50,031 bases of DNA from an uncultured Bacilli bacterium (GCA_947630575.1 CANRIB010000006.1:1-50031), one strand, 5' to 3'; counted from the stretch's first letter, positions 8,388 to 49,978 are shown. Notes: generated by a model not told the origin, from the sequence alone. A program made the numbers and translations.

Positions 8388-8390
8388 CCC

Positions 8391-8419: not shown

Positions 8420-8425
8420 AAACAC

Positions 8426-8634
8426 ATAAAGCAAATATTAAAAGACATGATTTATAAAATGATTTTTTATAGAGAGTTTAACATTTGGTGGAAGTTAATA
8501 AATAGTTTTATAAATTACTCCTTTTATAGTGAGATTAATAATCTCCGTTTAAGTTACGTTATAGACTTAAAATAAGTAATATAAAGGATGGTACCGCAGA
8601 ATTTGCTCCTTAAAGAGCCTGCGGTTTTTTATTT
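8426..8634 (+). ncRNA. T-box riboswitch (Thr)
   Basis: Stem I with AGAGA and GGTGGAA motifs, putative specifier ACT (8517-19), T-box AAGGA-TGGTACC-GCAG (8584-99) pairing with TGCTCCT, terminator ACCGCAG...CTGCGGT-TTTTT; thrS downstream. Confidence 0.88.
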
Positions 8635-8647
8635 AGGAGGGATATTT

Positions 8648-8977
8648 ATTACAAGAGAAATGTATAAAGATTATCTAACGGCATTTTATTATTTAAAAAA
8701 TAGTTTAGAAATCGAACATGATACAGCATATAACAAAGTATTATCAGTTTTAAAAAATATTATTGAAAGTTATGAAATGAGTGCTTGGGCTCACGAATTA
8801 AAAATGTTTAAGCCTGAAGAACTTGCTACTCCTGATATTTTAACTAAAACTCTATATACTTTAAAAGTTTTATATTTAGTAGCACCCGATACCAAAGAAG
8901 AGGGAGAGCTATTAGCTAAAAAAATTCAAAAAATAATTATTAATAATAAATTAGAAGAAAGAGGAATTAAAAGATGA
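8648..8977 (+). CDS. Hypothetical helical protein between the T-box and thrS (start ATT 8648 or ATG 8660)
   Basis: Open frame, strong SD AGGAGG at 8635-40, stop overlaps the thrS start (ATGA). Confidence 0.6.
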   Translation: MTREMYKDYLTAFYYLKNSLEIEHDTAYNKVLSVLKNIIESYEMSAWAHELKMFKPEELATPDILTKTLYTLKVLYLVAPDTKEEGELLAKKIQKIIINNKLEERGIKR

Positions 8978-10731: not shown

Positions 10732-10814
10732 AAAACGACCGGTTTTCTATTCAAAAAATAAAAAAACGACCGGTTTTCTGTTCAAAAAATAAAAAAACGA
10801 CCGGTTTTGACCGG
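10729..10814 (+). repeat. 31-bp tandem repeat, ~2.6 copies plus a partial core
   Basis: CGACCGGTTTT starts at 10736, 10767 and 10798; unit AAAAAAACGACCGGTTTTCT(A/G)TTCAAAAAAT. Confidence 0.9.
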
Positions 10815-10835
10815 AAAAAAGAAGGGGGAGTAGTA

Positions 10836-12134
10836 ATGAAACTGGCTAAATACAATAAAATAGAAAATAATACTATAGATTATAAAGAAAAAGTAGAAAC
10901 TAAAAAACCAAAAAGTTGGCTTAAAACAATTTCGGCTTTTGCTAATTCTAATGGAGGTATATTAGTATTCGGTGTAAGAGATAATGACCATGAATTAATA
11001 GGTTTAAATAATCCTATAAAAGATTCAGAAGAAATATCTAAATTAATAAACAGTAAAATTGAACCATTACCAAGATATGAATTAAATTCTTTTACTAAAA
11101 ATGAAAAAACATTTATTGAAGTAAAGATAGGAGATGGACCTAAAACACCTTATTACTATATTTCCGATGGTCGTAAAGAAGCTTTTATTCGCTCTGGAAA
11201 TGAATCTATTCCTGCACCAAAACATATTTTAGAAAATCTTATTTTAAAAGGACAAAATACCACTTTTGATGAATTGCCTAGTAATATTAATATTAAAGAA
11301 GCAAGTTTTACTCTTTTAAATGCTACCTTAATTAAAGAAACAGATAAACAACTTAATAAAGATAAAGATTTAATCTCTTTAGAATTAGCAACAAAAGACA
11401 AAAAACTAACAAATGCTGGCTTATTATTATGTGATCAAGGATTATTAAAACAATCTAGAATATTTTGCACTAAATGGAAAGGCTTAATAAAGGGCTCATT
11501 GAAAGAAGATGCTTATGACGATAAAGAATATACTGGAAGCATTATAACTTTACTAAATAATGCTGAAATGTTTATTAAAAATAATTCTAAAATAAGTTGG
11601 TATATAGACGGAATGAAAAGAATAGAGAAAAAAGATTACCCTCTAGAAGCTGTTCGTGAAGCAATTGTAAATGCTATTATTCATCGTGATTATCAAATTA
11701 TTGGTTCTGAAATTCATATTGATATGTTTGATGATAGATTAGAAATAACTTCCCCAGGAGGCATGCTAGATGGAAGTCTAATTCAAAATTTAGATATAAC
11801 TAAAATTTCTTCAATGCGCCGTAATAAAGTAATATCAGATATTTTTAGCAGACTTAATTTTATGGAAAGAAGAGGCAGTGGATTAATTAGAATATTAGAA
11901 GCCTACGATGACTGTAATATTAAACCAACATTTAATTCTAATGTATCATCTTTTAAAGTTACATTTCCAAATAAAAGATATACTGAAAATAATTCTAATA
12001 CTAAAGAAAAAATTGAAAAAAATATAATTAATGATAAAGATTTGTTTATTTTAAATACATATAAACTATTAAAAGGTAAAATTAGAAGTAAAACTTTTGA
12101 CCAATTAGAATTTGGATTTATGTCAAGTTTTTAG
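10836..12134 (+). pseudogene. AlbA_2/Schlafen-domain + HATPase_c_4 ('RecG C-terminal'-like) protein, 3' end truncated by IS3
   Basis: 'EN.TIDYKE...WLKTISAFANSNGG.L.FGV.D', 'REAIVNAIIHRDY', 'DDRLEITSPG', 'RN..I...F.RL..MERRGSG'; the last codons read into the IS3 IR at 12113. Confidence 0.8.
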
Positions 12135-37268: not shown

Positions 37269-38924
37269 ATGAGTGTAACTGATGTAAATGTTCCCAAAGC
37301 TAGAAATTATATTGAAAAAATTCAAAAATATAAACAATATTATACTAATAAACAATATGATTTTAGTCGTCCATCATACTATGGACATAGCTATGATTTA
37401 AATAGATATTTAGCTAAAATTTATAAAAAATATCAAGACATTACTGCAAATTTAGACAATATAAAAAATTATGTTGAAGAATATGTTGATGATGTCGAAG
37501 CAGTTGAAAAATTGAGTATAGGAGAAACAGGAAGTATTCATGATATTGATGTCAAAACCAAAGTAATAAATTATAAAGATGTTTTAAAATCTTTTAAAAT
37601 GCAAGATAATAGACTATTTCAAAATGCTAAACAAGTTACAACTATTGCCGATGTAGTTACACAAAGTATATGGGGCTTTAACTCTAAAAAAGATACTAAA
37701 ACTAGTGAAAACAATAATGTCAAAAAAGAAACAATTGCCGAAGAAGCTAATTTAACATCTGCATCAGTTTCAAAAAATACAGTAAAACCCGAAAAAACAC
37801 ATACAAACAGAACCACAGGAAATGCTACAACTACTGAAACTCTTAATTCTACTGTTAGTAAAGAAACTGAAAATACAGTTGAAAATATTGCTCCACCAGC
37901 AGAAACTACTCCAGAAAATACAACAACTACACCAGTATTCTCTGAAGAAGAAATTCGTAAGGCTAATTCTGAACAAGCCCTAAAAAATATTGAAGAAGCC
38001 ATTTTAGCTATGATAAGTCGAAATCCTCGTCTTGGTGATATTCTAGAATCTGTAAAAAAAGGCGAAGTTGTAGATTTAACTAAAGAACAAAAAAAGGTTC
38101 AAAATGATTATAATCGTGTAAAAGAATTATATGATATGTATAATGAAACATATCCTGAATATAAAATAGAAACATATGTTGATAAACCAACTGCCGAAAC
38201 ACCAATCCCCGAAGAACCAATAAACGAACAAGTACAGGAATCATTTTCTAAAGAAAGTTTGCAACAAGCAACAAGCTTATTAGCCGCTTTAGTTGGAACT
38301 CCAGGCTTAAGAGCAATGCTAAGTGCTTTGCAATTAGGTTTAAATATTGATTTAAAAGATGTTCCTCTAGAAGCTCAAAATGCCTTAAAAAAAGTACAAG
38401 AAATATGTAAAGAAAAAGGCATGTCATTGCAAGAAGTTTTAAATAATAGCCTTCAGGAAACAAATATTTACGAATCAAGTGCTAATATTACTAGATTAGA
38501 AGCTGATGCTGATTTTCTTGAATATACTGATGAAATTGAAATATATCCACTTGCATTTTTCTCTGTCAATAATGAATATTTTGTCGATAAAAATATAAGC
38601 TTAGTTCAATATTTAAATCGTATTGATGCTAAAATAGACAATTACCCAGATCTTTCAAATGGTTTATTTGATTTAGAATTTGATGAACCACTTCCTGTCA
38701 TCGCGTGCCTTTTATATACTAAAGGTCGTGAATTAAGAAGACAACCTGATATTAATCCAGAACTTGCTGAAAATATTACAAGTTGTGAATCATTTGATGA
38801 AAATAATGATGTTGTAATAGAAGATTTAGAAAAATTAGAAGAGTTAGTATCTCCATATCTAACAGATAATGAAAAACGTTATATAGATATCCTTAAAAAT
38901 ACTTCAAATAGTGAAACTGCCTAA
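37269..38924 (+). CDS. Hypothetical 551-aa protein, candidate T7SS substrate
   Basis: No signal peptide or TM; helical N-terminal ~85 aa; T/E/P-rich linkers; duplicated helical module; GGAGGT SD and its own terminator. Confidence 0.7.
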   Translation: MSVTDVNVPKARNYIEKIQKYKQYYTNKQYDFSRPSYYGHSYDLNRYLAKIYKKYQDITANLDNIKNYVEEYVDDVEAVEKLSIGETGSIHDIDVKTKVINYKDVLKSFKMQDNRLFQNAKQVTTIADVVTQSIWGFNSKKDTKTSENNNVKKETIAEEANLTSASVSKNTVKPEKTHTNRTTGNATTTETLNSTVSKETENTVENIAPPAETTPENTTTTPVFSEEEIRKANSEQALKNIEEAILAMISRNPRLGDILESVKKGEVVDLTKEQKKVQNDYNRVKELYDMYNETYPEYKIETYVDKPTAETPIPEEPINEQVQESFSKESLQQATSLLAALVGTPGLRAMLSALQLGLNIDLKDVPLEAQNALKKVQEICKEKGMSLQEVLNNSLQETNIYESSANITRLEADADFLEYTDEIEIYPLAFFSVNNEYFVDKNISLVQYLNRIDAKIDNYPDLSNGLFDLEFDEPLPVIACLLYTKGRELRRQPDINPELAENITSCESFDENNDVVIEDLEKLEELVSPYLTDNEKRYIDILKNTSNSETA

Positions 38925-38952
38925 AGCATAACCTATAAAGTTATGCTTTTTC
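38923..38952 (+). terminator. Intrinsic terminator
   Basis: AAAGCATAAC-ctataaa-GTTATGCTTT-TT. Confidence 0.75.
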
Positions 38953-39006
38953 TATTTTCTTTTAAAATAAATCATGTTATAATTACTATCATAGAAGGTG
39001 AGTACT

Positions 39007-39231
39007 ATGAAATGTGATAAATGCGGTTTTGTCCCTAATCCTGGTGATCAAATTTGTATGAACTGTGGAGCTAAATTAAGTTTATTAAATGCTGTATTAC
39101 CAGACGTAGAAGAAGTAAAAATAGAAACTAAAAAAAATAATAAAAAAATAATTATTATATCTGTTATAGGTATAGTTGCTTTAATAATTATAATATTCTT
39201 GATTATTAAATTTCTAGTTTTAAAAGGATAA
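39007..39231 (+). CDS. Zinc-ribbon protein with C-terminal TM anchor
   Basis: MKCDKCG...CMNCGAKL; poly-K followed by a hydrophobic helix; ATG 39007 after AGGTGA. Confidence 0.8.
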   Translation: MKCDKCGFVPNPGDQICMNCGAKLSLLNAVLPDVEEVKIETKKNNKKIIIISVIGIVALIIIIFLIIKFLVLKG

Positions 39232-39233
39232 TT

Positions 39234-39488
39234 ATGAAAAATAAGTTATTAGTAATAGTATATGTGCCTTTAATTGAAAAGCAAATAGATATGTATATCC
39301 CTGTAGTAAAAAAAGTTGGCACAATCAAGAATCTAATTATTAAAATAATTGAAGAAGAAAGCGAAGGAACTTTTATAGATGATGGCAGCAAGAATCTTTA
39401 TGATAAACAAACTGGCGAAAAAATAGATAATAACCAATTTGTCAAAGAAAGTATTATTAAAAATGGCTCTAAATTAATTTTGTATTAA
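39234..39488 (+). CDS. esaB: EsaB/YukD ubiquitin-like T7SS protein
   Basis: 84 aa, 'DMYIP....V..IK', C-terminal 'IKNGSKLIL'; directly upstream of essC. Confidence 0.75.
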   Translation: MKNKLLVIVYVPLIEKQIDMYIPVVKKVGTIKNLIIKIIEEESEGTFIDDGSKNLYDKQTGEKIDNNQFVKESIIKNGSKLILY

Positions 39489-39500
39489 GGAAGTGAGTAT

Positions 39501-42500
39501 ATGCAATTAACCATAATAAAAAAAGATAAATTAAGCATTTTTAATTTGCCAGATGAAATAAAAGGGAGCCATTGGATAACTGACTTTGAAAATGGTCGTA
39601 AAATTAATTTAATAAATATTGAAGCTACTGAAAAAGGTTGGAATATAATTAGTAATCATGATGCTTTTATAGTAGACAATAATGATATTATGGTTCCTTA
39701 TACCATTTTAACAAATTATAATTTCTATCTTTTAAAAAATAATTATAAAAATGAAAAATATTATTTGTATTGCTCACCAGTATATGATGAAACTTATCGT
39801 GAATTAGGAATAGATAATAAAATAATTGTCGGCAGTGATAATTCCTGTGATATTTGTTATAATTTAAATGGTGTTCCTAAAAAAGCTTTTAATATTATGA
39901 AAATAGGTAATTATTATTTTCTTACAATTACCGATAAAAATACCTCCGTATTTGTTAATCAAAAAAGGATATTAAGCAGCAAAAGAATTGAATATGGGGA
40001 TATAATTTTTATTTTTGGTTTAAAAATAATTTTAATGCGCCATGATGGTCGTGATTATCTTTTAGTTAACAATCCTAATAATATGCTTGCTTTTAATGCT
40101 TCATTTGTTAATATTGTTCCAACTCCAAGCGAATTTATTGAAGATAACACTGAATTAACAATTGATTCTATATATGATGAAGACACCTACTTTTATCGTG
40201 CTCCCCATTTTTACAAAACTCTAGACGATTTTAAATTAAATATTGATGTTCCACCATCTAAAAAAGAAGAAGACAAAACTCCAGCCGCCCTAACAATTGG
40301 ACCTATGCTTACAATGGCCATGACTTCTGTAGTAACTTTAATGTCTACTTTAAGCCAAATATCATCTGGTGAAAGAGATATGAGTTCTTCTATAACTTCA
40401 TTAGTTATGTGTGGTGCTATGCTAGCCAGTTGTTTACTATGGCCTTTATTAACTAAAGCTTATCAAAAATTTAGTGCTAAAATGTATGAGAAAAAAAGGC
40501 AAAAATTATATCGCAAATATATAGATAAAAAAGAAAGAGAAATCCAAGAAAGATTAGAAATTCAAAGAAAATCTTTACTTGAAAATAACTTTACAGTTAC
40601 CGATTGTCAAAATGTAATTCGTGGTCATAATGTCAAATTATGGCAAAGAAGAATAACTGATGATGACTTTTTAACTTTACCAGTTGGAATAGGGAATCTT
40701 CCTATGAAAATAGATATTAAATATCCCGAAGAACATTTCAGCTTAACTGAAGATAATCTATTAGATATAGCTCATTCTTTAGGTAAAAAAGAACGTATTT
40801 TAATGGATGTGCCAATTACTTTCTCATTTTTTGAAAATAAAACTAGTGGTATTGTCGGTGATCCTATAACTACCAAAGATTTTATTGATCGCCTTGTTTT
40901 ACAAATGATGGCTAATTATAGTTATGATGAACTAAAAATAGTTACTTTTACATCTATCGATAATGAAAATGATTGGGATTATATTAAAACAATTCCCCAC
41001 AGTTGGTCTAATGATCATGTATTTAGATATTTTGGCTCTTCTAATGAAGATTATCGAGAAATAATATATAATTTAGAAAAAATATATAATGAACGTCAAA
41101 GCACCGAACGCGATAATAGTAAACCTATGCCATATTATGTAATTATCACCGATGCTATTAAATCAATTGACAATTATGATTTTATTAAAAATATGATGGC
41201 GAGTAATAATAACTATGGTTTTAGTATTATCATGTTAGTAGATAAAGTATCAGCTCTACCAAATGAATGCAAAAGTTTTATCAATGTTTCTAAAGAAGAA
41301 TGTTCAATTTATAGCAGTGTTATCAATCTTGATGCTCAAAAATTTAAAATAGATTATTCTCCAATTGATGAAATATACAATTGTGCTCGTGAATTAGCTA
41401 ATATCCCTATTGATATAAAAAGCGAAGTAGAAGCAAGCTTGCCAGATGTATATCAATTTTTAGAAATGTATCAAGTGGGCAAAATAGAACAATTAAATTC
41501 TCAAGATCGTTGGAAAAAAAGTAATCCTATTCTTAGTTTACAAGCTCCCATTGGTATTGGTAAAAGTGGCGAAATAATAACCTTAGATTTACATGAAAAA
41601 TATCATGGACCCCATGGTTTAGTTGCCGGTACGACAGGATCTGGTAAATCTGAATTTATAATTACTTATATTTTATCTTTAGCAGTCAACTATCATCCCT
41701 ATGAAGTTCAAGTAATATTAATTGATTATAAAGGTGGAAGCCTCGCAGGAGCTTTTTGTAGTGATTCTTATGAACTGCCCCATTTAGCAGGAACTATAAC
41801 AAATCTAGATGGTAATGAATTAAATAGATCTCTAGCATCTATTGAAAGCGAAGTTAAAAGAAGACAACAAGAATTTAACGATGCTAGAAAAATTTCTGGC
41901 GAAAGTACCATAGATATTTATAAGTATCAAAAATTATGGCGAGAAGGGCGTCTAAAAGACAAAGAACCAATAGCCCATTTATTTATAATTAGTGATGAGT
42001 TTGCAGAACTTAAAGAACAACAACCAGAATTTATGGACAAATTAATTTCTGTTGCTCGTGTTGGTAGGTCTTTGGGTGTTCACTTAATTCTTGCTACTCA
42101 AAAACCCGGTGGAGTAGTTGATTCTCAAATTTGGTCCAATACTCGTTTTCGTGTCTGTCTTAAAGTTCAAGACACCAGTGATTCTCAAGAAGTACTAAAA
42201 AAACCTGATGCTGCTTATTTAAAGAAAACTGGACGTTTCTTTTTACAAGTAGGCTTTGATGAAGTTTTTACTTTAGGGCAATCTGCTTGGGCTGGCGGCC
42301 AATATTACCCAAATACAACTTTTAAAAAAGATATAGACACATCAATAAATACTATTAATAATATTGGCTTTATTACTACAACTAAAGATATTGAAGTATC
42401 TGAAACAGTTGAATCGCTAGGAGAAGAATTACCTAACATAGTGAAATATTTAAGCGATATAGCCGTCAAAGATAACATTAAAATAAAAAAACTATGGTTA

Positions 42501-44087
42501 GATAAAATACCAGCTAAAATATATATTGATTCCTTAAAAAGCAAATATAATTTTACTCGCACACCATTTATATTAAATCCCATTATTGGTGAGTATGATG
42601 ACCCTGAAAGTCAAAATCAATTTGCCTTAACAGTACCATTATCCAAATTAGGGAGCGCTATTATCTATGGTATCACAGGTGCTGGTAAAGAAGATTTTTT
42701 AACTAGTTTAATTTATTCTTGTATGACTTCATATAGTCCAGAAGAAGTAAATTTTTATATTTTAGATTTTGGTGCTGAAACCCTTCGTGTCTTTGTTAAA
42801 TCTCCTTATGTCGGTGATATAGTGTATATGGGAGAAGAAGATAAACTTATTAATTTATTTAAGATGATTAATAATGAATTAGAAATTAGAAAACAAAAAT
42901 TTGCTGAATATGGTGGTACATATGAAAGCTATATCACAAATACCAAAGAGTATATACCTAATATAGTAGTAATGATTAATAACTATGAAGCATTCTTAGA
43001 AAATTATGAAGATATTTCTGAAGAACTTAATGGTCTTTTAAGAGAAGCTTTTAAATATGGTATTTACTTTATTATTACCGCGAGTAGTGAAAATAATATT
43101 CGCACTAAAACTCGTCAAAATATTTCTTTAATCTATGTCTTAGCTCAAAATAATGAATCTGATTATTCTAGCATCTTAGGTAATATTCGTGGAAAAGTAC
43201 CTGCTAAATATAAAGGCCGTGGTTTATTTAAAAAAGATAATATTTATGAATTTCAAACTGCTTCTGTAAAAGAAGAAAATGTTTATGAATATTTAAGTAA
43301 TTATTGCAAATTAACTCAAGAAAAAATTACATATCGTGCTAAAAGAATACCTGTTCTACCAGAAATTGTAAATTATGACGCTATAATAAGTGACGTTACT
43401 AATACTCCAAACATGGTCATAGGTATCAATAAAAATAAATTAGAAGTAGAAAAATATAACTTTAAGAAAAATGCCATTAATTTAATATGTTCTTATGAAT
43501 TAGAAAGTATGATTACTTTTATAAATGCTTTAATAAATGAAGTAAATTATACCAAAGAATATGAAACATTATTTATAAATACAAGTGAAATAACTATTGA
43601 TAACCATAATTTAAAAGGTAAATTATACACTACTAATTTTGATGATGTTATTAATAGTATGGCAAATTATATCAATCAAGTTTATGATTTATATGAAAAA
43701 AATAATTATAATCTTAATTTAGTAATTAACCAAAAGAAATTTATGATATTTATCTTTGGATTATTTGACTTTATGAATAAGCTAAACGATGAAACCAAGA
43801 ATAAATTAAGTGACATGATTAAAAAAGATAATCAAATAGGTCTTATCTCCTTTGTTCTCGTGGACAATCCAGATGTTATTAAAAATTATGCTTATGATGA
43901 TTGGTTCAAAAATGGTTGTGATACTTCTCGTGGTATCTATATAGGAAGTGGCATTGCGGATCAAAACTTATTTAAAATATCTAAATTTGATCGAGAAGAT
44001 CGTGAAGATATATCTAATGAATATGGTTATTTAATTCAAACATCTAAAATATATCGCATAAAATTATTAGAAAGTTTTGAAGAATAA
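39501..44087 (+). CDS. essC: Type VII secretion FtsK/SpoIIIE ATPase EssC/YukB
   Basis: FHA-like N-terminus, two TMs, 'LWQRR..DDDFL', 'LDLHEK.HGPHGLVAGTTGSGKSE', IDYKGG, DEFAELK, 'GRSLGVHLILATQKP', second domain GITGAGK/LDFG. Confidence 0.95.
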   Translation: MQLTIIKKDKLSIFNLPDEIKGSHWITDFENGRKINLINIEATEKGWNIISNHDAFIVDNNDIMVPYTILTNYNFYLLKNNYKNEKYYLYCSPVYDETYRELGIDNKIIVGSDNSCDICYNLNGVPKKAFNIMKIGNYYFLTITDKNTSVFVNQKRILSSKRIEYGDIIFIFGLKIILMRHDGRDYLLVNNPNNMLAFNASFVNIVPTPSEFIEDNTELTIDSIYDEDTYFYRAPHFYKTLDDFKLNIDVPPSKKEEDKTPAALTIGPMLTMAMTSVVTLMSTLSQISSGERDMSSSITSLVMCGAMLASCLLWPLLTKAYQKFSAKMYEKKRQKLYRKYIDKKEREIQERLEIQRKSLLENNFTVTDCQNVIRGHNVKLWQRRITDDDFLTLPVGIGNLPMKIDIKYPEEHFSLTEDNLLDIAHSLGKKERILMDVPITFSFFENKTSGIVGDPITTKDFIDRLVLQMMANYSYDELKIVTFTSIDNENDWDYIKTIPHSWSNDHVFRYFGSSNEDYREIIYNLEKIYNERQSTERDNSKPMPYYVIITDAIKSIDNYDFIKNMMASNNNYGFSIIMLVDKVSALPNECKSFINVSKEECSIYSSVINLDAQKFKIDYSPIDEIYNCARELANIPIDIKSEVEASLPDVYQFLEMYQVGKIEQLNSQDRWKKSNPILSLQAPIGIGKSGEIITLDLHEKYHGPHGLVAGTTGSGKSEFIITYILSLAVNYHPYEVQVILIDYKGGSLAGAFCSDSYELPHLAGTITNLDGNELNRSLASIESEVKRRQQEFNDARKISGESTIDIYKYQKLWREGRLKDKEPIAHLFIISDEFAELKEQQPEFMDKLISVARVGRSLGVHLILATQKPGGVVDSQIWSNTRFRVCLKVQDTSDSQEVLKKPDAAYLKKTGRFFLQVGFDEVFTLGQSAWAGGQYYPNTTFKKDIDTSINTINNIGFITTTKDIEVSETVESLGEELPNIVKYLSDIAVKDNIKIKKLWLDKIPAKIYIDSLKSKYNFTRTPFILNPIIGEYDDPESQNQFALTVPLSKLGSAIIYGITGAGKEDFLTSLIYSCMTSYSPEEVNFYILDFGAETLRVFVKSPYVGDIVYMGEEDKLINLFKMINNELEIRKQKFAEYGGTYESYITNTKEYIPNIVVMINNYEAFLENYEDISEELNGLLREAFKYGIYFIITASSENNIRTKTRQNISLIYVLAQNNESDYSSILGNIRGKVPAKYKGRGLFKKDNIYEFQTASVKEENVYEYLSNYCKLTQEKITYRAKRIPVLPEIVNYDAIISDVTNTPNMVIGINKNKLEVEKYNFKKNAINLICSYELESMITFINALINEVNYTKEYETLFINTSEITIDNHNLKGKLYTTNFDDVINSMANYINQVYDLYEKNNYNLNLVINQKKFMIFIFGLFDFMNKLNDETKNKLSDMIKKDNQIGLISFVLVDNPDVIKNYAYDDWFKNGCDTSRGIYIGSGIADQNLFKISKFDREDREDISNEYGYLIQTSKIYRIKLLESFEE

Positions 44088-44139
44088 ATTTCTTAAATTC
44101 AACATTTTTCTAAGATATTGTAAAGAAACGTAAATAAAA

Positions 44140-44168
44140 TTGACTAATAAAATAAAGTATGCTATATT
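44140..44168 (+). promoter_or_regulatory. sigmaA promoter of the double-WXG100 gene
   Basis: TTGACT-17-TATATT with extended TG; SD AAGGAGGT downstream. Confidence 0.65.
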
Positions 44169-44222
44169 TATAATATAAAGCATGGTAACATGATATAAGA
44201 TTAAATTTAAAGGAGGTATATT

Positions 44223-44882
44223 ATGTCTGTATTTGCTTATAATCCAGAAGCTGCTAAAAGTTGGGCTAATGGAATTGTTAATTATTTAAATGGAGGAAGT
44301 GAAAGCATAAGTGCTTGTTCTAAAAAGCTTAGTGAACAAATAGAAATATTAGTTCAACCTAATGTTTGGACAGGATCTGCTGCTGCTCAAAATTATCAAA
44401 ATTTTATGGATACTCATAGAGCTTTTATTAAATTTATTAATAGTTTTGGTGATGCTTTTAGAGATTCAATGACCAAAGTTAATAAAGCTGTCGCAGAACT
44501 AGAAATGGCTAATTTAGGTGCTGATACTAATATTGAATCAACATTTGGAACTTTATCATATGATCAAATCGCTGCTTTATCTGAACAAAATATTAATAAA
44601 GCAGAAGTTACTTATGATTATGATAAAATTAGTGAAGTTAGTAGTTCTTTAAAAAGTATTGTGGCTATGGTTGACAGTATTAAAACTAATTTAACAAATA
44701 AAATCAATGAATTAAATAATGGTTCTGGAATGTGGGATGGCACTTCAGCTGAACAAGCTAAAGAAACTTTAAGCTCTATCATAAGTTCAAATATGCAAAA
44801 AATTAACGAACTATTAACTATAGATGTTAAAGAAATATCTGATGCCGCTGCTAGAGCTTCACAAGTAGATAGGGGAGCATAA
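44223..44882 (+). CDS. Tandem double WXG100-domain protein
   Basis: Two ~100-aa helical halves, each with a central WxG (VWTGSAA, MWDGTSA). Confidence 0.8.
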   Translation: MSVFAYNPEAAKSWANGIVNYLNGGSESISACSKKLSEQIEILVQPNVWTGSAAAQNYQNFMDTHRAFIKFINSFGDAFRDSMTKVNKAVAELEMANLGADTNIESTFGTLSYDQIAALSEQNINKAEVTYDYDKISEVSSSLKSIVAMVDSIKTNLTNKINELNNGSGMWDGTSAEQAKETLSSIISSNMQKINELLTIDVKEISDAAARASQVDRGA

Positions 44883-44904
44883 AAAATCACAATTGTGATT
44901 TTTT
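44881..44904 (+). terminator. Terminator after the WXG100 gene
   Basis: AAAAAATCAC-aatt-GTGATTTTTT. Confidence 0.7.
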
Positions 44905-44958
44905 ATAGATAAGAACTAAATGTTATATTTAGTTTTTATCTATGAAAGGAAGATTTAA

Positions 44959-45258
44959 ATGGATATAAGAATAAATACTGATAACATGAAAAATCATATT
45001 AAAGATATAGATTCATATATGAATGATTATCAAATAATTTTATCTAAAATAAAGGGTATTATTGATTCTGGACTTAAAAATGCTATAAAAACAGAGCAAT
45101 TATATCAAAATTTTAATGAAGAAATTCAAGGATTAAGAAGAAGTTTAGAAAGTTTACCAGTTCAAATGCAAACTTGGAAAAAATTTATTGATGGCTACAT
45201 AGAAGCTAGTGAATCATTAGATATTAATTATAATAAACAAAAAATAATCTTAAGATAG
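44959..45258 (+). CDS. Small helical WXG100-like protein without a WxG motif
   Basis: 99 aa, 'IRINTDNM' N-terminus, helix-turn-helix hairpin pattern, T7SS context. Confidence 0.6.
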   Translation: MDIRINTDNMKNHIKDIDSYMNDYQIILSKIKGIIDSGLKNAIKTEQLYQNFNEEIQGLRRSLESLPVQMQTWKKFIDGYIEASESLDINYNKQKIILR

Positions 45259-45268
45259 GAGTAAAATT

Positions 45269-45577
45269 ATGAATTATGAAATTAATATAAATCTACCACT
45301 AGTTGAAGAAGCCAACAACTCATTAAAAGAAGAGTTTACAAATATGCTTACAACCTTAGATAATATTTTACAAGCCTACAATAATCTTCTTAACGATAGT
45401 GAATGGGAAACTGAAACCAAAGAATATTTTCGCCCCATAATTAAAAATTTTAAAGAAAATATCAACATTATAAATACTAAATTTAATGATATAAATACAT
45501 ATTTAACTAATGTAGTAGATAATTATAATCGTCATGAAAAAAATGTTGCAGAAGATATAAAAAACTTAGGAGGTTAA
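45269..45577 (+). CDS. WXG100-like protein
   Basis: 102 aa, central W (SEWET), C-terminal YxxxE (YNRHE). Confidence 0.65.
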   Translation: MNYEININLPLVEEANNSLKEEFTNMLTTLDNILQAYNNLLNDSEWETETKEYFRPIIKNFKENINIINTKFNDINTYLTNVVDNYNRHEKNVAEDIKNLGG

Positions 45578-45578
45578 T

Positions 45579-45971
45579 ATGGCATATAAATATAGTGAAG
45601 TATATAATCCCACTGAATTAAAGAATTTAGCAAATACTCTAATAAGTGAGTTAAATGGTGATTATAATCTTAAAAATTTAAAAGATATTGAAGGAATAAA
45701 AACAAAATCCATAGAAAACAATATTAAAGAAGCTTTAGATAAAATGCAAGTAGGAAAAAATTCTACATTAAGTGGTGATGTAAAGCATTTAAAATTAATG
45801 CTTGAAAATTTAAAATCAGCTTGTACAAGTATTATATCTTATCAATCAAAAGTAAAAGAATTAAAAAAATATCAAGATAACAATAAAGATGGAAAATATG
45901 ATGTAACAATTAAAAATTTAAAAAAATCTATAAATACTTCAGAAACATTAATAGACAATTATTTAAAGTAA
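45579..45971 (+). CDS. Helical hypothetical protein, T7SS-associated
   Basis: 'YNPTELKNLANTL' resembles WXG100 N-termini; AGGAGG SD; 1-nt gap from the previous gene. Confidence 0.6.
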   Translation: MAYKYSEVYNPTELKNLANTLISELNGDYNLKNLKDIEGIKTKSIENNIKEALDKMQVGKNSTLSGDVKHLKLMLENLKSACTSIISYQSKVKELKKYQDNNKDGKYDVTIKNLKKSINTSETLIDNYLK

Positions 45972-45990
45972 TAAGAAATGAGGCATAAAA

Positions 45991-47937
45991 ATGTTTGGAA
46001 AAATCTTATATATAAGTGACAATATTTGTTACATAGAAAATAAAGGCTCAAATGAAATTGGTGGAGATTTATTAAATCTTCATTTAATATTTGAACATGA
46101 AGATCAAAAATTATTAGGAGAAATAGTCGAAATAAGAGATGACCGTATTGAAGTTAGATTTCTAGGTGAATTTATAAATGGCCGTTATAACAATGGTGTC
46201 TTAAGAAAAGCAAGTTTAAATAGTACAATTCGTGTTATTAATACAGAAGAATTATTAGAACTTGTAGGAAAAGAATCTAATAAAAGTTTTGTCTTAGGAA
46301 AAAGTGCCACATATAAAGATTTTAATGTTTGTCCAGATATTAATGATTTATTTGCCAATCATATGTGTATATTTGGTAACTCTGGTTCAGGTAAATCTTG
46401 TGGAGTATCAAGAGTAGTTCAAAATATTTTAAGTAATAAAAATTTTCTCGCATATAATGCTAATTTAATTTTCTTTGACTCTTTTGGTGAATACAAAAAT
46501 GCTTTTAAAAATATAAACGCTATTAACCCATATTACAATTATAAATTTGTTACTTCTCGTATTCGTGATGAAGGCGACGTTCAAATAAATTTACCATTAA
46601 ATCTTTTAAAAGTAGATGATATAGGAATTCTTCTTCAAGCTGATAAACACTCTCAATTAACTATTATAGAAAGAGCTTTAAAATATGCTAAAATATTTGC
46701 CACTGATACCCCAGAAGCTAATCAATACAAAAATCATATTATCGCCAATGCTCTAATAACTATTTTATATAGCCAAAGTACTACTAGACAAAAAAAAGAT
46801 GATATCTTTACTATCATCGATACATGTCATACCAAAGAATTTAATTTTGATTCTGTTATTCCTGGTCTTGGTTATACTCGAAGTTTTAGTGAATGTTTTG
46901 CCATTGATTCTCATGGCCATTTTGGTGAAGAAGTATTAATTACTGAATATATTTTAAAATTCATAGATGAAAATTTAAATGAGATTGAAGAACCTGCTGA
47001 TGCTATCTTTACATTAGGTGGTTTAGCTAAAGCTCTAGATTTCACTTTAATAAGTGAAGGCTTTAATCAAAATAAAAATATGCATGATGATGCTCAATTA
47101 TTAAAGGTAAGATTAAATACTATTTTACATAGCAATATGAAAGAATTTTTTACTGGTACTGAATATGTTACACCTGCCAAATTTATAACTAGATTAGTTA
47201 GTAATAATAACAAAAAATCTCAAATAATTAATATTAATCTTGAAGGATTAGACGATAGTTATGCTAAAGCTTTAGTTAAAATATATTCTCGTATTATTTT
47301 TGACTTTGCTAAAGAAAACGCCAATCGTGCCACAGTTCCTTTTCATTTATTTTTAGAAGAAGCTCATAGATATGTTCAACATGATAATGATGTCTTCTTA
47401 CTTGGATATAACATCTTTGATCGTATTGCTAAAGAAGGTCGTAAATATGGTGTTATTTTAGATATTATTAGTCAAAGACCAGTTGAAATAAGTGATACTG
47501 TTATTGCCCAATGTTCTAACTTTTTAATATTTAAAATGACTCACCCAAAAGATATTAAATATATTGAAGAAATGTTACCAAATATTAGTGCTGATGTTAT
47601 AGAAAAAATGAAAATATTACAACCAGGAACTTGTGTAGCCTTTGGAACAGCTTTTAAAATACCAATGATTTGTAAATTAGAAATGCCAAATCCTCGTCCA
47701 TATTCTGCAAGCTGTGATGTATCATCATATTGGGATTCTAAAAATGATATTAATAAAGACATAAACGATAATGAAACAGGGGAACAAACAAGTCCAACCA
47801 TAAATCAAAATGTAACAATTAGACCTGATGTCATTAATAGTGAAATTAAAAATCAAATTAATATTCCTAATGAAAATCCAAATCCCGAAACTCAAAACAG
47901 ATTTATTAATCCTGAAAACATAAACCCCGTTTCTTAA
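45991..47937 (+). CDS. HerA-like (DUF87) P-loop ATPase with N-terminal beta-barrel
   Basis: H..IFGNSGSGKS, FDSFGEY, LEEAHRY, RIAKEGRKYG, ISQRP.EIS.TV.AQCSN, LQPG.C. Confidence 0.9.
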   Translation: MFGKILYISDNICYIENKGSNEIGGDLLNLHLIFEHEDQKLLGEIVEIRDDRIEVRFLGEFINGRYNNGVLRKASLNSTIRVINTEELLELVGKESNKSFVLGKSATYKDFNVCPDINDLFANHMCIFGNSGSGKSCGVSRVVQNILSNKNFLAYNANLIFFDSFGEYKNAFKNINAINPYYNYKFVTSRIRDEGDVQINLPLNLLKVDDIGILLQADKHSQLTIIERALKYAKIFATDTPEANQYKNHIIANALITILYSQSTTRQKKDDIFTIIDTCHTKEFNFDSVIPGLGYTRSFSECFAIDSHGHFGEEVLITEYILKFIDENLNEIEEPADAIFTLGGLAKALDFTLISEGFNQNKNMHDDAQLLKVRLNTILHSNMKEFFTGTEYVTPAKFITRLVSNNNKKSQIININLEGLDDSYAKALVKIYSRIIFDFAKENANRATVPFHLFLEEAHRYVQHDNDVFLLGYNIFDRIAKEGRKYGVILDIISQRPVEISDTVIAQCSNFLIFKMTHPKDIKYIEEMLPNISADVIEKMKILQPGTCVAFGTAFKIPMICKLEMPNPRPYSASCDVSSYWDSKNDINKDINDNETGEQTSPTINQNVTIRPDVINSEIKNQINIPNENPNPETQNRFINPENINPVS

Positions 47938-47952
47938 ACAAACGAGGTTTTA
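47922..47952. terminator. Bidirectional terminator
   Basis: AAACCCCGTTT...AAACGAGGTTT between convergent genes. Confidence 0.55.
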
Positions 47953-48405
47953 TTTTAAATATTTAGGATTATCAATTCTACCAAGTAAATAATCGGCACT
48001 TATTTTATATTTACAACATATATCATAAAGATAAATAGTATTTATTAAAATTCTTCCTCTTTCATAATCTGATAAAACTGATTGAGTAGTATTTAAAATA
48101 TTTTTTAAATCATTTTGAGTTAATTTTTTTTCTTTTCTTAATTCTCTTAATCTGTTACCTACAATCTTATAATCAATATCTTTCTTAATATTATCATAAC
48201 TTTTTTCATCACTAAAATTAAATATATAATCTAAAGAAACATTAAAATAATTGCATATATTAATTAAATGTTTTAACGGCATAATTGTTTTTTCTCTTTC
48301 AAATTCACTATAAGCAGCATTAGAAATTCCAATAACTTTAACTAATTCAGTCTGCTTAATACCATCATAAGTTCTTATATCTTTAAGTCTATCCTTATAA
48401 ATCAT
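47950..48405 (-). CDS. XRE regulator with two tandem HTH domains
   Basis: 'RLKDIR...IKQ.EL...IS..AYS.FER...N.SLDY' and 'RLRELRKEKKLTQ..L...TQS..S.YERG...ISADYLLG'. Confidence 0.9.
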   Translation of the reverse strand: MIYKDRLKDIRTYDGIKQTELVKVIGISNAAYSEFEREKTIMPLKHLINICNYFNVSLDYIFNFSDEKSYDNIKKDIDYKIVGNRLRELRKEKKLTQNDLKNILNTTQSVLSDYERGRILINTIYLYDICCKYKISADYLLGRIDNPKYLK

Positions 48406-48462
48406 TTATAACCACCATAATTATTTTCTCATTAAAAAGTGGCAAAGAAAAAATAATCAAGT

Positions 48463-48507
48463 AATATCGATATTTTTCTTGACTTTTAGTATATCAGATA
48501 TTATAAT
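48463..48507 (+). promoter_or_regulatory. sigmaA promoter with two palindromic operator-like sites
   Basis: TTGACT(48479)-17-TATAAT(48502); AATATCGATATT at 48463-74 and ATATCAGATAT at 48491-501. Confidence 0.65.
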
Positions 48508-48559
48508 TTTAATATAAGTTAGAAAAATCTAATAATATTGAAAGTTAGGGCGAATAAAA

Positions 48560-49978
48560 ATGGAAAAGAAAAATGGAATTTTAGTTTTAATAATGGTTTT
48601 AATTATAATAAGTGTAGTATTATTAATACCCAAGAATAAAGAATATAAAATAAAAGAAGATAATATTACAAAAGAAGAATATAATACATTATCTATGTTT
48701 ATAGTAGATGGAGAAAAAGAAACTCCAATAGATAAAACACCAGATGCTAGTAAATATGAAATAGATACAAATAAAAGTTATTGTAAAAGAGGAGATCAAG
48801 AATTACGTAATATCCTCACAACCATAAACAATAACTTTGTATTTAAAGAATTACATACCAATGATAAATGTTATTTATGGTTTAATAAAATTACTAATGT
48901 TGGAGATTTAATTATAGATAATTCGACTTATTATGATGGAACAACTCCAAATTTTAGTCAAACTGCATGTGATAGTGGGTGCAACACTACTGATAAAGGA
49001 CTTTATAAAACACAAGACGATGATGGAGATACATATTACTTTAGAGGAAGTGTAACAGATAACTGGGTCAAATTTGCAGGATATTATTGGAGGATTATTC
49101 GAATAAATGGTGATGGAACAATAAGGTTGATATATTCTGGAGATGAAAGTGAAACAAATGTAGATTTCCCAAATAGTAATAAAACTAATCCAGCATATGT
49201 GACAAATACTGGAACTCAAGTAACAATAGATAATTCTAATATTATAGCATTTAATATTAGTCCTAAGCAAAATAGATATGTAGGATATATGTATGGTTCT
49301 ACTAGTGGAGATTATTCTACATCACATAAAAATGATACATCAAGTAATATAAAAACAAAATTGGAAAGTTGGTATTCAACTAATTTAGAGAATAAATCAG
49401 TAGGAAGTAAAAAAGCATCAGATTATATAGATACAGATGCAGGATTTTGTGGAGATAGAACACCATATGATGGATATGGTTCTTCAGCAACTGTAGATTA
49501 TACAAAAGGAGGAACAACAACCACAACATATTATGGAGGGTATTTTAGATTAGCAGTGAATAAACAACCAGATTTACATTGTAAAAGAAAAACAGGAAAT
49601 AATGGAAGTACTACAACATTATCAGAAGATAATGATTTATATACAGTAAGTGGTTCTAAAAAGGGAAATAAAGCAATATCAAAACCAGTAGGGTTAATAA
49701 GTGCAGATGAAGTAAGTTTTGCAGGAGGTAGAACTGGAGCAAATAACCAAGGATATTACTTATATACAGGTCAAACATATTGGACAATGTCTCCGTCTGA
49801 CTTTAGCGGCTGGGCTTGGGTGTTCTATGTGGATACGAGTGGCAAGCTCAGCGACACCTACGCGTACTACTCGTATGGTGTGCGTCCAGTAATAAATCTA
49901 AAAGCTGATACAAAAATAGCATTTCAAAATCCTAATGGAGAAAATAAAGGAACATATCTTAGCTACGGACAGTTTTGA
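48560..49978 (+). CDS. Membrane-anchored surface protein with predicted C-type-lectin-like C-terminus, probable DGR target; last residues derive from an IS end
   Basis: N-terminal TM; 'YYFRG...NWVKF...WRIIRINGDG.IRLIY', 'VGLISADEV', 'YWTMSP...GVRPVINL'. Confidence 0.75.
   Translation: MEKKNGILVLIMVLIIISVVLLIPKNKEYKIKEDNITKEEYNTLSMFIVDGEKETPIDKTPDASKYEIDTNKSYCKRGDQELRNILTTINNNFVFKELHTNDKCYLWFNKITNVGDLIIDNSTYYDGTTPNFSQTACDSGCNTTDKGLYKTQDDDGDTYYFRGSVTDNWVKFAGYYWRIIRINGDGTIRLIYSGDESETNVDFPNSNKTNPAYVTNTGTQVTIDNSNIIAFNISPKQNRYVGYMYGSTSGDYSTSHKNDTSSNIKTKLESWYSTNLENKSVGSKKASDYIDTDAGFCGDRTPYDGYGSSATVDYTKGGTTTTTYYGGYFRLAVNKQPDLHCKRKTGNNGSTTTLSEDNDLYTVSGSKKGNKAISKPVGLISADEVSFAGGRTGANNQGYYLYTGQTYWTMSPSDFSGWAWVFYVDTSGKLSDTYAYYSYGVRPVINLKADTKIAFQNPNGENKGTYLSYGQF
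49781..49890 (+). other. Putative DGR variable region (VR)
   Basis: 60/110 G+C by hand count in an otherwise AT-rich gene; 12 of 36 codons are NNC; lies between WTMSP and GVRP. Confidence 0.7.

What the first reader, a model, noticed from the sequence alone, without database searches (positions are those of the whole stretch)
39007..47937. Minimal, atypical type VII secretion locus coupled to a HerA-like ATPase
Seen: co-oriented Zn-ribbon-TM protein, EsaB, FHA-type EssC, double WXG100, three small helical proteins and a HerA/DUF87 ATPase, bounded by terminators. No EsaA, EssA or EssB, no LXG toxin and no immunity array are in the window. Known: Bacillota T7SSb needs EsaA, EssA, EssB, EsaB, EssC and EsxA and usually has toxin-immunity genes after essC; some actinobacterial ESX systems take part in DNA transfer. 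Inference: a distinct T7SS variant in which a second ring ATPase occupies the usual effector position, possibly for DNA transfer, anti-phage defence or sporulation rather than toxin delivery. This is the best candidate for an undescribed system here.
Basis: partly seen in the sequence, partly recalled or inferred. Interest (0 to 1): 0.85.

Follow-up and report, generated by a model that had tools for sequence, protein, structure and literature searches.

The report
Compact type VII secretion locus beside HerA
An uncultured small-genome gut bacterium has a stripped-down type VII protein-secretion gene cluster that lacks three usual membrane parts; the HerA motor gene next to it is probably a resident neighbour, not part of the machine.

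Summary
The HerA interpretation mostly fails.

The locus holds:
- a Zn-ribbon/TM protein
- a ubiquitin-fold EsaB-like protein
- an FHA-bearing EssC
- a fused double WXG100
- three small helical proteins

EssB, EssA and EsaA were not found in this genome. EssB was found in 0 of 60 other EssC-positive genomes of the order, against 12 of 12 EssC-positive genomes of other Bacilli orders. The order's EssC splits from those on one long branch. This is a compact T7SS variant, typical of the order (EssC in 193 of 401 genomes). It matches none of T7SSa-j as far as I read that paper.

There is an effector. The upstream 551-aa gene has an N-terminal domain that heads 103 protein clusters of 69-5100 aa. 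That domain is predicted to bind two of the small helical proteins (0.80 against a best control of 0.01).

HerA occurs in 383 of 401 genomes, with or without EssC. Only 8 of 80 sampled EssC loci have it nearby. Linkage is tight only within the window's own HerA clade, a relocated lineage that persists in 21 genomes without EssC. Earlier scan notes on other genomes reached the same view of this HerA and also reported minimal T7SS loci.

The parts
37269..38924 (+). p551: candidate secreted polymorphic effector. It has an N-terminal ~125-aa targeting-like domain, a T/N/E-rich linker and a C-terminal region of unknown function.
   Evidence: No Pfam or NCBIfam family. A profile of the N-terminal domain hits 103 cluster representatives (64 at E<=1e-10). 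Each match starts within the first 36 residues, in proteins of 69-5100 aa. The domain is predicted to bind h99 and h102: ipSAE 0.80, best control 0.01. No TM segment.
38923..38949 (+). Terminator-like hairpin plus T run after p551
   Evidence: sequence read
38975..38983 (+). TGTTATAAT, an extended -10-like motif ahead of the Zn-ribbon gene. This is my reading of the sequence; the scan did not flag it.
   Evidence: sequence; inference
39007..39231 (+). Zn-ribbon (CxxC...CxxC) protein with one C-terminal TM helix. Clade-specific small membrane partner. The ORF is also open from GTG 38998.
   Evidence: Homologues lie before EsaB-EssC only in loci whose EssC is 63% or more identical to the window's. 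No tblastn hit in 40 more distant loci.
39234..39488 (+). EsaB/YukD-like ubiquitin-fold protein (TsxB)
   Evidence: Found next to EssC in 36 of 40 and 34 of 40 loci.
39501..44087 (+). EssC: FHA N-terminus, TM region (residues 295-319 strongly hydrophobic), FtsK/SpoIIIE ATPase domains (Walker A at 710 and 1057)
44140..44168 (+). Promoter-like site (TTGACT-17-TATATT, with TG) ahead of the WXG genes
   Evidence: strong GGAGG ribosome-binding site seen
44223..44882 (+). Fused tandem WXG100 protein (EsxA-like, two WxG motifs)
44959..45258 (+). h99: WXG100-like helper. The family consensus has WQG; the window's copy lacks the W.
45269..45577 (+). h102: WXG100-like helper (weak WXG100/ESAT-6 hits)
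45579..45971 (+). h130: helical protein with a conserved LxG(S) motif; small substrate or adaptor of unknown fold class
   Evidence: pLDDT 78, all helical; no significant fold match
45991..47937 (+). HerA-family ATPase with a disordered N/P-rich tail. It starts 20 bp after h130 with its own GAGG ribosome-binding site and no terminator between. Judged a resident neighbour rather than a T7SS part.
47922..47950 (.). Hairpin between the convergent HerA and HTH genes, scored as a terminator on the - strand only

Best explanation
Window 37269-45971 encodes a compact type VII secretion system of a kind typical of this order of uncultured small-genome gut Bacilli.

Machine. It consists of the FHA-bearing EssC motor and channel and a ubiquitin-fold EsaB-like protein that probably docks on EssC. 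In this clade there is also a 74-aa Zn-ribbon membrane protein. EssB, EssA and EsaA are missing from this lineage. I do not think they are hidden elsewhere in the genome.

Substrates. These are a covalently fused double WXG100, the helical protein h130, and the polymorphic effector p551. The N-terminal domain of p551 is inferred to bundle with the WXG100-like helpers h99 and h102 into a pre-secretion complex, which EssC then recognises. This parallels LXG toxins and their Lap partners.

HerA. The HerA gene at 45991-47937 belongs to an order-wide, strongly conserved orphan HerA family whose flanks are a variable slot. In this clade a relocated HerA lineage lies next to the T7SS cassette and is probably read through from it, but it works independently of secretion.

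Shown: gene content, folds and families, absences, distributions and linkage counts.
Inferred: that EssC alone forms the channel, that p551 is exported, and that HerA is functionally independent.
For: T7SS identity.

Absences.
- Own genome: no EssB (TIGR03926, PF10140), EssA (PF10661) or EsaA N-terminus (TIGR03929).
- EssB: 0 of 60 EssC-positive genomes of the order, against 12 of 12 EssC-positive genomes of other orders of the class, all above the cut-off and next to EssC.
- EsaA N-terminus: only 4 of 30 genomes gave hits, all below the cut-off (51-70 bits against 122) and away from EssC.
- EssA: 7 of 30 genomes gave weak hits, inside ORFs of 170-957 aa. None lay within 50 kb of EssC in the six genomes whose EssC place was listed.

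Conservation.
- EssC is in 193 of 401 genomes and 77 of 145 genera. 148 of the 150 listed copies have no in-frame stop.
- The order's 61 EssC rows separate from 11 EssB-linked EssC rows by one branch (100*, length 1.14).
- The genome has 5 PBP transpeptidase genes, so the cell is walled.

p551. The complex scored 0.80 against a best control of 0.01. That mark was reached by 58 of 80 solved complexes and 2 of 110 mismatched pairs. The runs share at least 92% of contacts and the partner's pLDDT is at least 81.

HerA independence.
- 383 of 401 genomes have HerA: 188 of 193 EssC-positive and 195 of 208 EssC-negative.
- Genus g46 lacks HerA in 4 of 4 genomes, and 2 of them have EssC.
- 8 of 80 EssC loci have a HerA nearby.
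- 21 of 24 genomes of the window's HerA clade without adjacent T7SS genes have no EssC at all.
- That lineage is the sole A-type HerA in four EssC-negative genomes.
- HerA's immediate neighbours fall into 30 different gene clusters upstream (74 loci) and 40 downstream (75 loci).
Against: Linkage inside the window's HerA clade is tight.
- The clade has 45 rows and 100* support. 20 other loci plus the window have T7SS genes beside HerA, in at least three gene orders.
- Two of the three remaining EssC-positive genomes have HerA at a contig edge, so adjacency could not be seen.
- In some loci T7SS-type genes flank HerA on both sides (L004, L040, L043).

Three genomes (G108, G268, G096) keep a HerA in the canonical gatCAB-ThiF context and also carry an extra copy of the window's lineage next to the T7SS. 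HerA may therefore have travelled with the cassette.

Three further HerA lineages border T7SS clusters: genus codes g88, g38 and g43.

In the window, HerA follows h130 by 20 bp with no terminator between.

Absence of EssA-like or EssB-like function rests on sequence models. A very divergent analogue, such as the Zn-ribbon TM protein, would be missed.

The complex model may pass through likeness to solved LXG-Lap-type bundles. No secretion has been measured.
Confidence: 0.68

Rival explanations
1. HerA is a genuine accessory ATPase of this T7SS clade, for example a cytosolic unfoldase or chaperone analogous to EccA or TsfV, or a link to DNA transfer. A paralogue of the order's core HerA was captured by the T7SS cassette and moves with it.
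For: - Within the 45-row HerA clade, adjacency to the window-type T7SS holds in 21 rows and is probably cut by contig ends in 2 more. It survives changes of gene order.
- G108, G268 and G096 have an extra HerA copy next to the T7SS besides the copy in the canonical context.
- The own genome's canonical slot (c3 - ToxN - ThiF on contig C25) is empty, and its only HerA sits at the T7SS.
- The gap is 20 bp with no terminator.
- Three other HerA lineages border T7SS clusters.
- The published T7SSf includes an AAA+ ATPase (PMC11217815, Results, read).
Against: - HerA presence does not depend on EssC: 188 of 193 against 195 of 208 genomes.
- The same HerA lineage persists in 21 genomes without EssC and is the only A-type HerA in four EssC-negative genomes.
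- 72 of 80 EssC loci have no HerA nearby.
- HerA flanks are a general variable slot, so cassettes of any kind gather there (earlier scan notes).
- No binding test of HerA was run.
Confidence: 0.17
2. It is an ordinary T7SSb whose EssA, EssB and EsaA equivalents are present but too divergent for the sequence models. The Zn-ribbon TM protein might stand in for EssA, or unlinked membrane proteins might serve.
For: - Small membrane proteins evolve fast.
- The Zn-ribbon TM gene keeps a fixed place before EsaB-EssC in the window's EssC clade.
- EssC itself scores above the T7SSb EssC cut-off.
- A soluble Ser/Thr kinase sits at the same place in L086, L087 and L121.
Against: - The same models found EssB in 12 of 12 EssC-positive genomes of other Bacilli orders and in 0 of 61 here.
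- Many loci of the order hold only EssC, EsaB and two small helical genes set among ribosomal-protein and transporter genes.
- No further gene is conserved around EssC across the 40 clustered loci.
Confidence: 0.1
3. The cluster is a decaying, non-functional remnant left after loss of the membrane components.
For: Three parts that are essential in the studied T7SSb are missing.
Against: - All ORFs are intact.
- EssC is full length without stops in 148 of 150 listed copies across 77 genera.
- Walker A motifs are kept.
- EsaB is kept beside EssC in 70 of 80 loci.
- The substrate genes are diversified and the effector N-domain family is large.
Confidence: 0.05

Closest known systems
T7SSb (Ess of Staphylococcus aureus, Yuk of Bacillus subtilis)
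   Same: EssC with an N-terminal FHA domain and FtsK/SpoIIIE ATPase domains. TIGR03928 scores above its cut-off and the best solved relative is B. subtilis YukB. There are WXG100 substrates, a ubiquitin-like EsaB/YukD, small WXG-like helpers, and DUF4176 genes in related loci.
   Different: No EssB/YukC, EssA or EsaA/YueB. The WXG100 is a fused tandem. The effector's N-terminal domain is not Pfam LXG. A Zn-ribbon TM protein is present. EssC lies on a separate long branch.
T7SSc-T7SSj of Garrett, Higginson and Palmer 2024 (PMC11217815; abstract, Results parts 1-2 and Discussion read; supplements closed)
   Same: It shares the near-universal TsxA/TsxB/TsxC core. Like T7SSg it is 'relatively simple'. 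Like T7SSf it has an extra ATPase gene inside the cluster. A kinase occurs in some related loci, as in several of these subtypes.
   Different: - T7SSg lacks FHA on its ATPase and has a DUF5050 propeller.
- T7SSf has a PPM phosphatase, DUF6382-FHA TsfJ and the AAA+/TadZ-like TsfV, not HerA.
- T7SSd, e and j have a membrane kinase and a large Ig-like TsxI.
- T7SSc and T7SSh lack FHA.
None of these components is among the locus proteins. That survey used RefSeq. The words zinc, metagenom and mycoplasm do not occur in its main text.
LXG polymorphic toxins with Lap-type helper proteins
   Same: A conserved N-terminal helical domain heads proteins with very variable C-termini. Small WXG100-like partners are encoded nearby and are predicted to bind that domain. 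One relative ends in an ADP-ribosyltransferase toxin domain. DUF4176 genes stand before the large relatives.
   Different: No Pfam LXG hit in p551, in 4 large relatives or in 10 representatives. No immunity gene follows p551; a terminator follows directly. The C-terminal function is unknown.
HerA of HerA-NurA repair and of anti-phage HerA systems (solved chains 9c1m, 8xau, 8ziq, 8wiv, 4d2i, 8j4u)
   Same: DUF87/HerA ATPase core with Walker A and B; E 7.6e-44 to 9c1m.
   Different: No NurA in the genome. No SIR2 or DUF4297 partner among the neighbours. NCBIfam anti-phage HerA models score 171 and 137 bits against cut-offs of 850 and 800. The gene is present in 383 of 401 genomes of the order, which is unlike a mobile defence gene.

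Membership tests
T7SSb (Ess/Yuk) | EssC: membrane FtsK/SpoIIIE ATPase with N-terminal FHA domain(s) | tested here: met
   TIGR03928 1022 bits against cut-off 778; YukB 2.4e-119; FHA 22.8 bits against 20.7, found in 38 of 41 family members
T7SSb (Ess/Yuk) | EsxA-type WXG100 substrate | tested here: met
   TIGR03930 46.6 bits against 44.85 and Pfam WXG100 33.9 bits against 27.3 on the 219-aa protein. Two WxG motifs. It is a fused tandem, which is atypical.
T7SSb (Ess/Yuk) | EsaB/YukD ubiquitin-like protein | tested here: met
   By fold: pLDDT 94, beta-grasp, Foldseek matches to ubiquitin and the EccD5 Ubl. By sequence: only 9 of 34 family members reach YukD; the window's own copy does not.
T7SSb (Ess/Yuk) | EssB/YukC pseudokinase membrane protein | tested here: not met
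   Own genome 0; 0 of 60 EssC-positive genomes of the order; positive control 12 of 12 in other orders
T7SSb (Ess/Yuk) | EssA | tested here: not met
   Own genome 0. 7 of 30 genomes gave weak hits inside larger ORFs, none near EssC where its place was listed. A divergent analogue cannot be excluded.
T7SSb (Ess/Yuk) | EsaA/YueB large envelope-spanning protein | tested here: not met
   Own genome 0. 4 of 30 genomes gave hits below the cut-off, in ORFs of about 655-715 aa away from EssC. Only the N-terminal model was searched.
T7SSg (PMC11217815) | ATPase without FHA; DUF5050 beta-propeller TsgL; adjacent Tad genes | tested here: not met
   FHA is present. No DUF5050 or Tad hit among the ten locus proteins. 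Features taken from the paper's Results.
T7SSf (PMC11217815) | PPM phosphatase TsfF, DUF6382-FHA TsfJ, AAA+/TadZ-like TsfV | tested here: not met
   None among the locus proteins. Not searched genome-wide. EssC was not placed on a tree with TsfC, because the accessions are in closed supplements.
T7SSd/e/j (PMC11217815) | Membrane Ser/Thr kinase TsxD and large Ig-like TsxI | tested here: not met
   None in the window locus. A soluble 236-260-aa kinase occurs in related loci L086, L087 and L121.
LXG toxin family | Pfam LXG N-terminal domain | tested here: not met
   No hit for p551, for 4 large relatives or for 10 representatives
LXG toxin family | Conserved N-terminal domain, polymorphic C-termini, small helical partners that bind the N-domain | tested here: met
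   (103 representatives, 69-5100 aa, match at the N-terminus). (0.80 against 0.01; a model, not a measurement).
LXG toxin family | Cognate immunity gene downstream | tested here: not met
   A terminator and then the Zn-ribbon gene follow p551 directly
HerA family | DUF87/HerA ATPase core with Walker A and B | tested here: met
HerA-NurA repair pair | NurA nuclease partner | tested here: not met
   PF09376: 0 matches in the own genome at E<=0.1; the control rang in 7 of 14 known genomes
Anti-phage HerA systems | Adjacent SIR2 or DUF4297 effector; mobile, patchy distribution | tested here: not met
   No such neighbour. NCBIfam scores lie far below the cut-offs. Present in 383 of 401 genomes.

The most novel reading that the evidence does not exclude
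In this clade a paralogue of the order's core HerA has been captured by the T7SS cassette and serves as its cytosolic hexameric ATPase, an analogue of EccA or TsfV that prepares or unfolds substrates such as the p551-h99-h102 bundle. It travels with the cassette between genomes. It would be the first HerA-type motor tied to protein secretion.
Probability: 0.15. Interest if true: 0.85.

Novelty: new variant of a known kind. Interest (0 to 1): 0.55.

Why it matters
Which parts of the Bacillota T7SS form the channel is still unsettled, and all studied T7SSb need EssA, EssB and EsaA. Here about half of the sampled genomes of a widespread gut lineage keep an intact EssC, a ubiquitin-like partner and WXG100 proteins but none of those three, although the cells are walled. 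If this core exports protein, it is the smallest natural T7SS and a simple model for asking whether EssC alone makes the pore.

The upstream gene also defines a new N-terminal address domain carried by proteins of up to 5100 aa. That opens a set of unstudied effectors of uncultured gut bacteria.

The HerA result is a caution. A neighbour in the 'effector position' can be a resident gene beside a variable slot.

Tried and rejected
- NurA partner for HerA: none in the genome.
- Fold search of the h130 model: no match at E<=0.001. The weak PPE41 rows are not significant.
- ESM Atlas for the p551 C-terminus: no usable hit.
- Word-indexed homologue search with p551 residues 1-170: only itself. The profile search was needed.
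- Profile of the EsaB-like family against PDB sequences: nothing relevant. The fold search settled it.
- Test of whether HerA plus the T7SS is an insertion between MetRS and TatD: inconclusive. The own genome has the two genes on different contigs with other neighbours.
- The 'EssC' hit beside the B-type HerA in L128 is a 765-aa protein at 32% identity. I did not count it as T7SS.
- Wall-less cell as the reason for the missing EsaA: rejected, since there are 5 PBP transpeptidase genes, and LysM and sortase domains occur in related loci.
- Literature: no paper on a T7SS linked to HerA, or on T7SS in this lineage, was found. The only hit for 'type VII secretion' plus 'RF39' was an unrelated review, seen in the listing only.
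- No complex test of HerA with any T7SS protein was run. The single job went to p551N with h99 and h102.
- In the EssC tree two rows, L152 and L156, have very long branches. Their longest ORF may not be EssC. They do not affect the split.
Full report
OBSERVATION

The window is contig C6 of a 1.33-Mb, 62-contig genome that is 92.3% complete. G+C is about 27%. Its relatives are uncultured gut 'Bacilli', 'Tenericutes', 'Mycoplasma sp. CAG:776' and Candidatus Caccenecus, by record titles. NCBI files the last under Bacilli incertae sedis. Earlier scan notes call the lineage RF39-type; I did not test that name.

The + strand carries these ORFs:
- p551, 37269-38924
- a Zn-ribbon/TM protein, 39007-39231
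- an 84-aa protein, 39234-39488
- EssC, 39501-44087
- a 219-aa double WXG100, 44223-44882
- h99, h102 and h130, 44959-45971
- a HerA-like ATPase, 45991-47937

A convergent double-HTH gene and a 472-aa membrane-anchored protein follow.

Family searches confirm:
- EssC: TIGR03928 1022 bits against a cut-off of 778.
- WXG100 on the 219-aa protein, and weakly on h102.
- DUF87/HerA.

The 84-aa protein gives no YukD hit on its own. However, 9 of 34 members of its family do. An alignment-based AF2 model (pLDDT 94) is a beta-grasp. Its best structural matches are ubiquitin, NEDD8 and the ubiquitin-like domain of EccD5 in ESX-5.

The EssC N-terminus holds an FHA domain at residues 108-169, found in 38 of 41 family members. 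The 219-aa protein has two WxG motifs.

A + strand terminator lies at 38923-38949. The hairpin at 47922-47950 scored only on the - strand. The sequence shows an extended -10-like TGTTATAAT before the Zn-ribbon gene (my reading). There is a promoter-like site plus a strong ribosome-binding site before the WXG genes. HerA starts 20 bp after h130 with its own GAGG and no terminator.

THE MISSING PARTS ARE MISSING IN THE WHOLE LINEAGE

In the own genome there is no match to EssB (TIGR03926, PF10140), EssA (PF10661), the EsaA N-terminus (TIGR03929) or, by sequence, YukD. Each model rang in the Bacillus subtilis control.

EssC was found in 193 of 401 sampled genomes of the order, in 77 of 145 genera. 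148 of the 150 listed copies have no in-frame stop.

- EssB. In 60 EssC-positive genomes of 40 genera, YukC/EssB was found in 0. As a control I sampled 120 other genomes of the class. The 12 outside the order whose EssC passes the TIGR03928 cut-off all have YukC above its cut-off, directly beside EssC (12 of 12).
- EsaA N-terminus. It gave hits below the cut-off in 4 of 30 genomes, away from EssC.
- EssA. It gave 7 of 30 weak hits inside larger ORFs. None lay within 50 kb of EssC in the six genomes whose EssC place was listed.

On a FastTree of 72 rows, the 61 EssC of the order and the 11 EssB-linked EssC fall on two sides of one branch (100*, length 1.14). Two order rows have suspect long branches. 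The odd-numbered loci of the second batch were left out.

The genome has five PBP transpeptidase genes, so a missing wall does not explain the reduction.

WHAT IS CONSERVED AROUND EssC

I fetched 80 EssC loci with flanks of up to 7.5 kb. The EsaB-like gene is beside EssC in 36 of 40 and 34 of 40 of them.

The first 40 loci were clustered:
- About 97-aa WXG100-like genes of the h102 type occur in 29 of the 41 sources clustered (the 40 loci plus the window's own stretch), often in two to four copies.
- A common order is EsaB, four such genes, a ~160-aa h130-like gene, DUF4176, a 1000-1850-aa protein, then EssC.
- Another group holds only EssC, EsaB and two small helical genes. These sit between ribosomal protein genes (L13, S9), a ZIP transporter and other housekeeping genes.
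- No further gene is conserved across the 40 clustered loci.

The Zn-ribbon/TM gene is confined to loci whose EssC is at least 63% identical to the window's. A soluble Ser/Thr kinase sits there in L086, L087 and L121.

AN EFFECTOR WAS OVERLOOKED

The first ~120 residues of p551 resemble the N-termini of proteins of 851-1667 aa in related loci. A profile of this domain found 103 cluster representatives among 1.84 billion (64 at E<=1e-10, 11 at E<=1e-30). The match always starts within the first 36 residues, in proteins of 69 to 5100 aa.

Of 10 representatives scanned, 1 ends in an ADP-ribosyltransferase exoenzyme domain, 1 has a weak SctB2 hit and 8 have no Pfam family. This is the pattern of a polymorphic effector family with a shared export domain. 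None of them hits Pfam LXG.

A complex model of p551(1-125) with h99 and h102 scored 0.80 against a best control of 0.01. That mark was reached by 58 of 80 solved complexes and 2 of 110 mismatched pairs. The runs agree in at least 92% of contacts and the partner's pLDDT is at least 81. The pass may reflect likeness to solved helical bundles of T7SS substrates. It supports binding but does not show it.

The h99 family carries WQG, the h102 family NWxS, and the h130 family an LxGS motif. The h130 model is helical (pLDDT 78) without a significant fold match. No immunity gene follows p551.

HerA

HerA's solved relatives are HerA proteins (9c1m at 7.6e-44, also 8xau, 8ziq and 4d2i). There is no NurA.

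HerA is present in 383 of 401 genomes and 138 of 145 genera. Of the 18 genomes without it, 5 have EssC. HerA therefore occurs in 188 of 193 EssC-positive and 195 of 208 EssC-negative genomes. Genus g46 lacks it in 4 of 4 genomes, and 2 of those have EssC.

Only 8 of 80 EssC loci hold a HerA in the fetched flanks. These fall in four lineages: the window's clade, g88, g38 and g43.

I also looked at 80 HerA loci, the best 80 of 194 relatives. The immediate neighbours fall into 30 clusters upstream and 40 downstream. They include gatB, MetRS, TatD, ThiF, ToxN, Fic and GNAT genes.

HerA itself is not one simple orthologue:
- Most genomes have an A-type copy (48-100% identical to the window's) and a B-type copy (38-43%).
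- The own genome has one copy only.

A FastTree of 95 HerA rows puts the window in a 45-row clade (100*). Left out were four loci that duplicate others and fragments under 450 aa. In that clade, 21 rows are T7SS-adjacent and 24 are not. None of the 43 other A-type rows is adjacent.

Of the 24 non-adjacent genomes, 21 have no EssC at E<=1e-30. Two have HerA at a contig edge. One has a 40%-identical EssC on another contig.

G108, G268 and G096 keep a HerA in the canonical gatCAB-HerA-ThiF context and also carry a copy of the window's clade beside the T7SS. In the own genome the canonical slot on contig C25 reads gatB, a HAD-type gene, c3, ToxN, ThiF, with no HerA.

So the window's HerA belongs to a relocated lineage that has replaced the canonical copy in many genomes. 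It is closely linked to the window-type T7SS wherever that is present. It also stays as the sole A-type HerA in four EssC-negative genomes (G227, G251, G113, G056).

READING

The simplest account is as follows.
- This is a compact T7SS cassette: core EssC, EsaB and WXG100 proteins, here with a Zn-ribbon membrane protein.
- Its substrates are the fused WXG100, h130 and p551, with h99 and h102 as targeting partners.
- It lies in the variable slot next to a resident HerA gene.
- The cassette has been lost repeatedly while HerA stayed.

I give this 0.68.

The main rival is that this HerA lineage was captured by the cassette and works with it. I give that 0.17. In its favour are the tight linkage within the clade, the extra copy in three genomes and the recurrence in other lineages. 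A variable slot beside HerA would also produce such recurrences.

Independent earlier notes of this scan on other genomes describe the same 'core orphan HerA beside a variable slot', and minimal T7SS loci without EssA/B/EsaA in other gut Firmicutes. My counts agree with the former.

COMPARISON WITH PRINT

Garrett, Higginson and Palmer (PMC11217815) define T7SSc-j from RefSeq. I read the abstract, Results parts 1-2 and the Discussion. TsxA, TsxB and TsxC are near-universal in their subtypes. None of the subtypes, as I read them, is the set seen here: an FHA-bearing ATPase, a Ubl protein, WXG100 proteins, a Zn-ribbon TM protein and no other conserved part. None has a HerA.

Five literature searches found nothing on a T7SS with HerA or in this lineage.

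VERDICT

The T7SS locus is real. It is a new variant of a known kind. The HerA coupling is unproven and probably incidental.

Noticed in passing
window 47950-49978, and genome-wide (G000, at least 32 contigs): The double-HTH regulator (47950-48405, - strand) and the 472-aa N-terminally anchored protein (48560-49978) belong to greatly expanded families. There are 34 HTH copies and 53 p472 copies in the 1.33-Mb genome. 23 HTH copies pair divergently with a p472 copy. Together they cover about 6% of the genome.
   Followed up: partly
G000 contig C25, about 7646-10974 (outside the window): The canonical HerA slot of related genomes (gatB - HAD_SAK_2-like - c3 - HerA - ToxN - ThiF) is present here but has no HerA. 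Only about 250 bp separate c3 from a ToxN-like gene.
   Followed up: partly
G108, G015, G035, G347, G267, G227, G251, G056 (e.g. L124, L126, L128, L130, L132): Most genomes of the order carry a second, B-type HerA paralogue, 38-43% identical, in unrelated contexts. The window's genome and genus have none at E<=1e-3.
   Followed up: partly
L086:14395-15105, L087:12849-13574, L121:4896-5678: A soluble 236-260-aa Ser/Thr protein kinase (Pkinase E 1e-26, HCDLKPNN motif) sits just upstream of Zn-ribbon-EsaB-EssC, or near EssC, in three related loci. This recalls the kinases in published T7SS variants.
   Followed up: no
L088:16449-17021: An h130-like helical protein carries a C-terminal LysM domain (E 1.4e-15). 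It may be a T7SS substrate that binds peptidoglycan.
   Followed up: no
P0136 (852 aa): A member of the p551 N-domain family ends in an ADP-ribosyltransferase exoenzyme domain (E 1.6e-7). Other members reach 5100 aa with no known domains.
   Followed up: no
L046-L082 loci, both flanks of HerA: ToxN (type III toxin-antitoxin toxin), Fic, GNAT and HAD_SAK_2 genes alternate in the slots directly beside the canonical HerA. The flanks look like an accessory-gene hot spot.
   Followed up: partly
L056:8924-9898 and homologues (cluster c3, about 330 aa): A protein with no Pfam family lies directly or nearly directly upstream of HerA in 25 of 80 loci. It persists in the own genome at the emptied slot. 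Its function, and whether it relates to HerA, is unknown.
   Followed up: no
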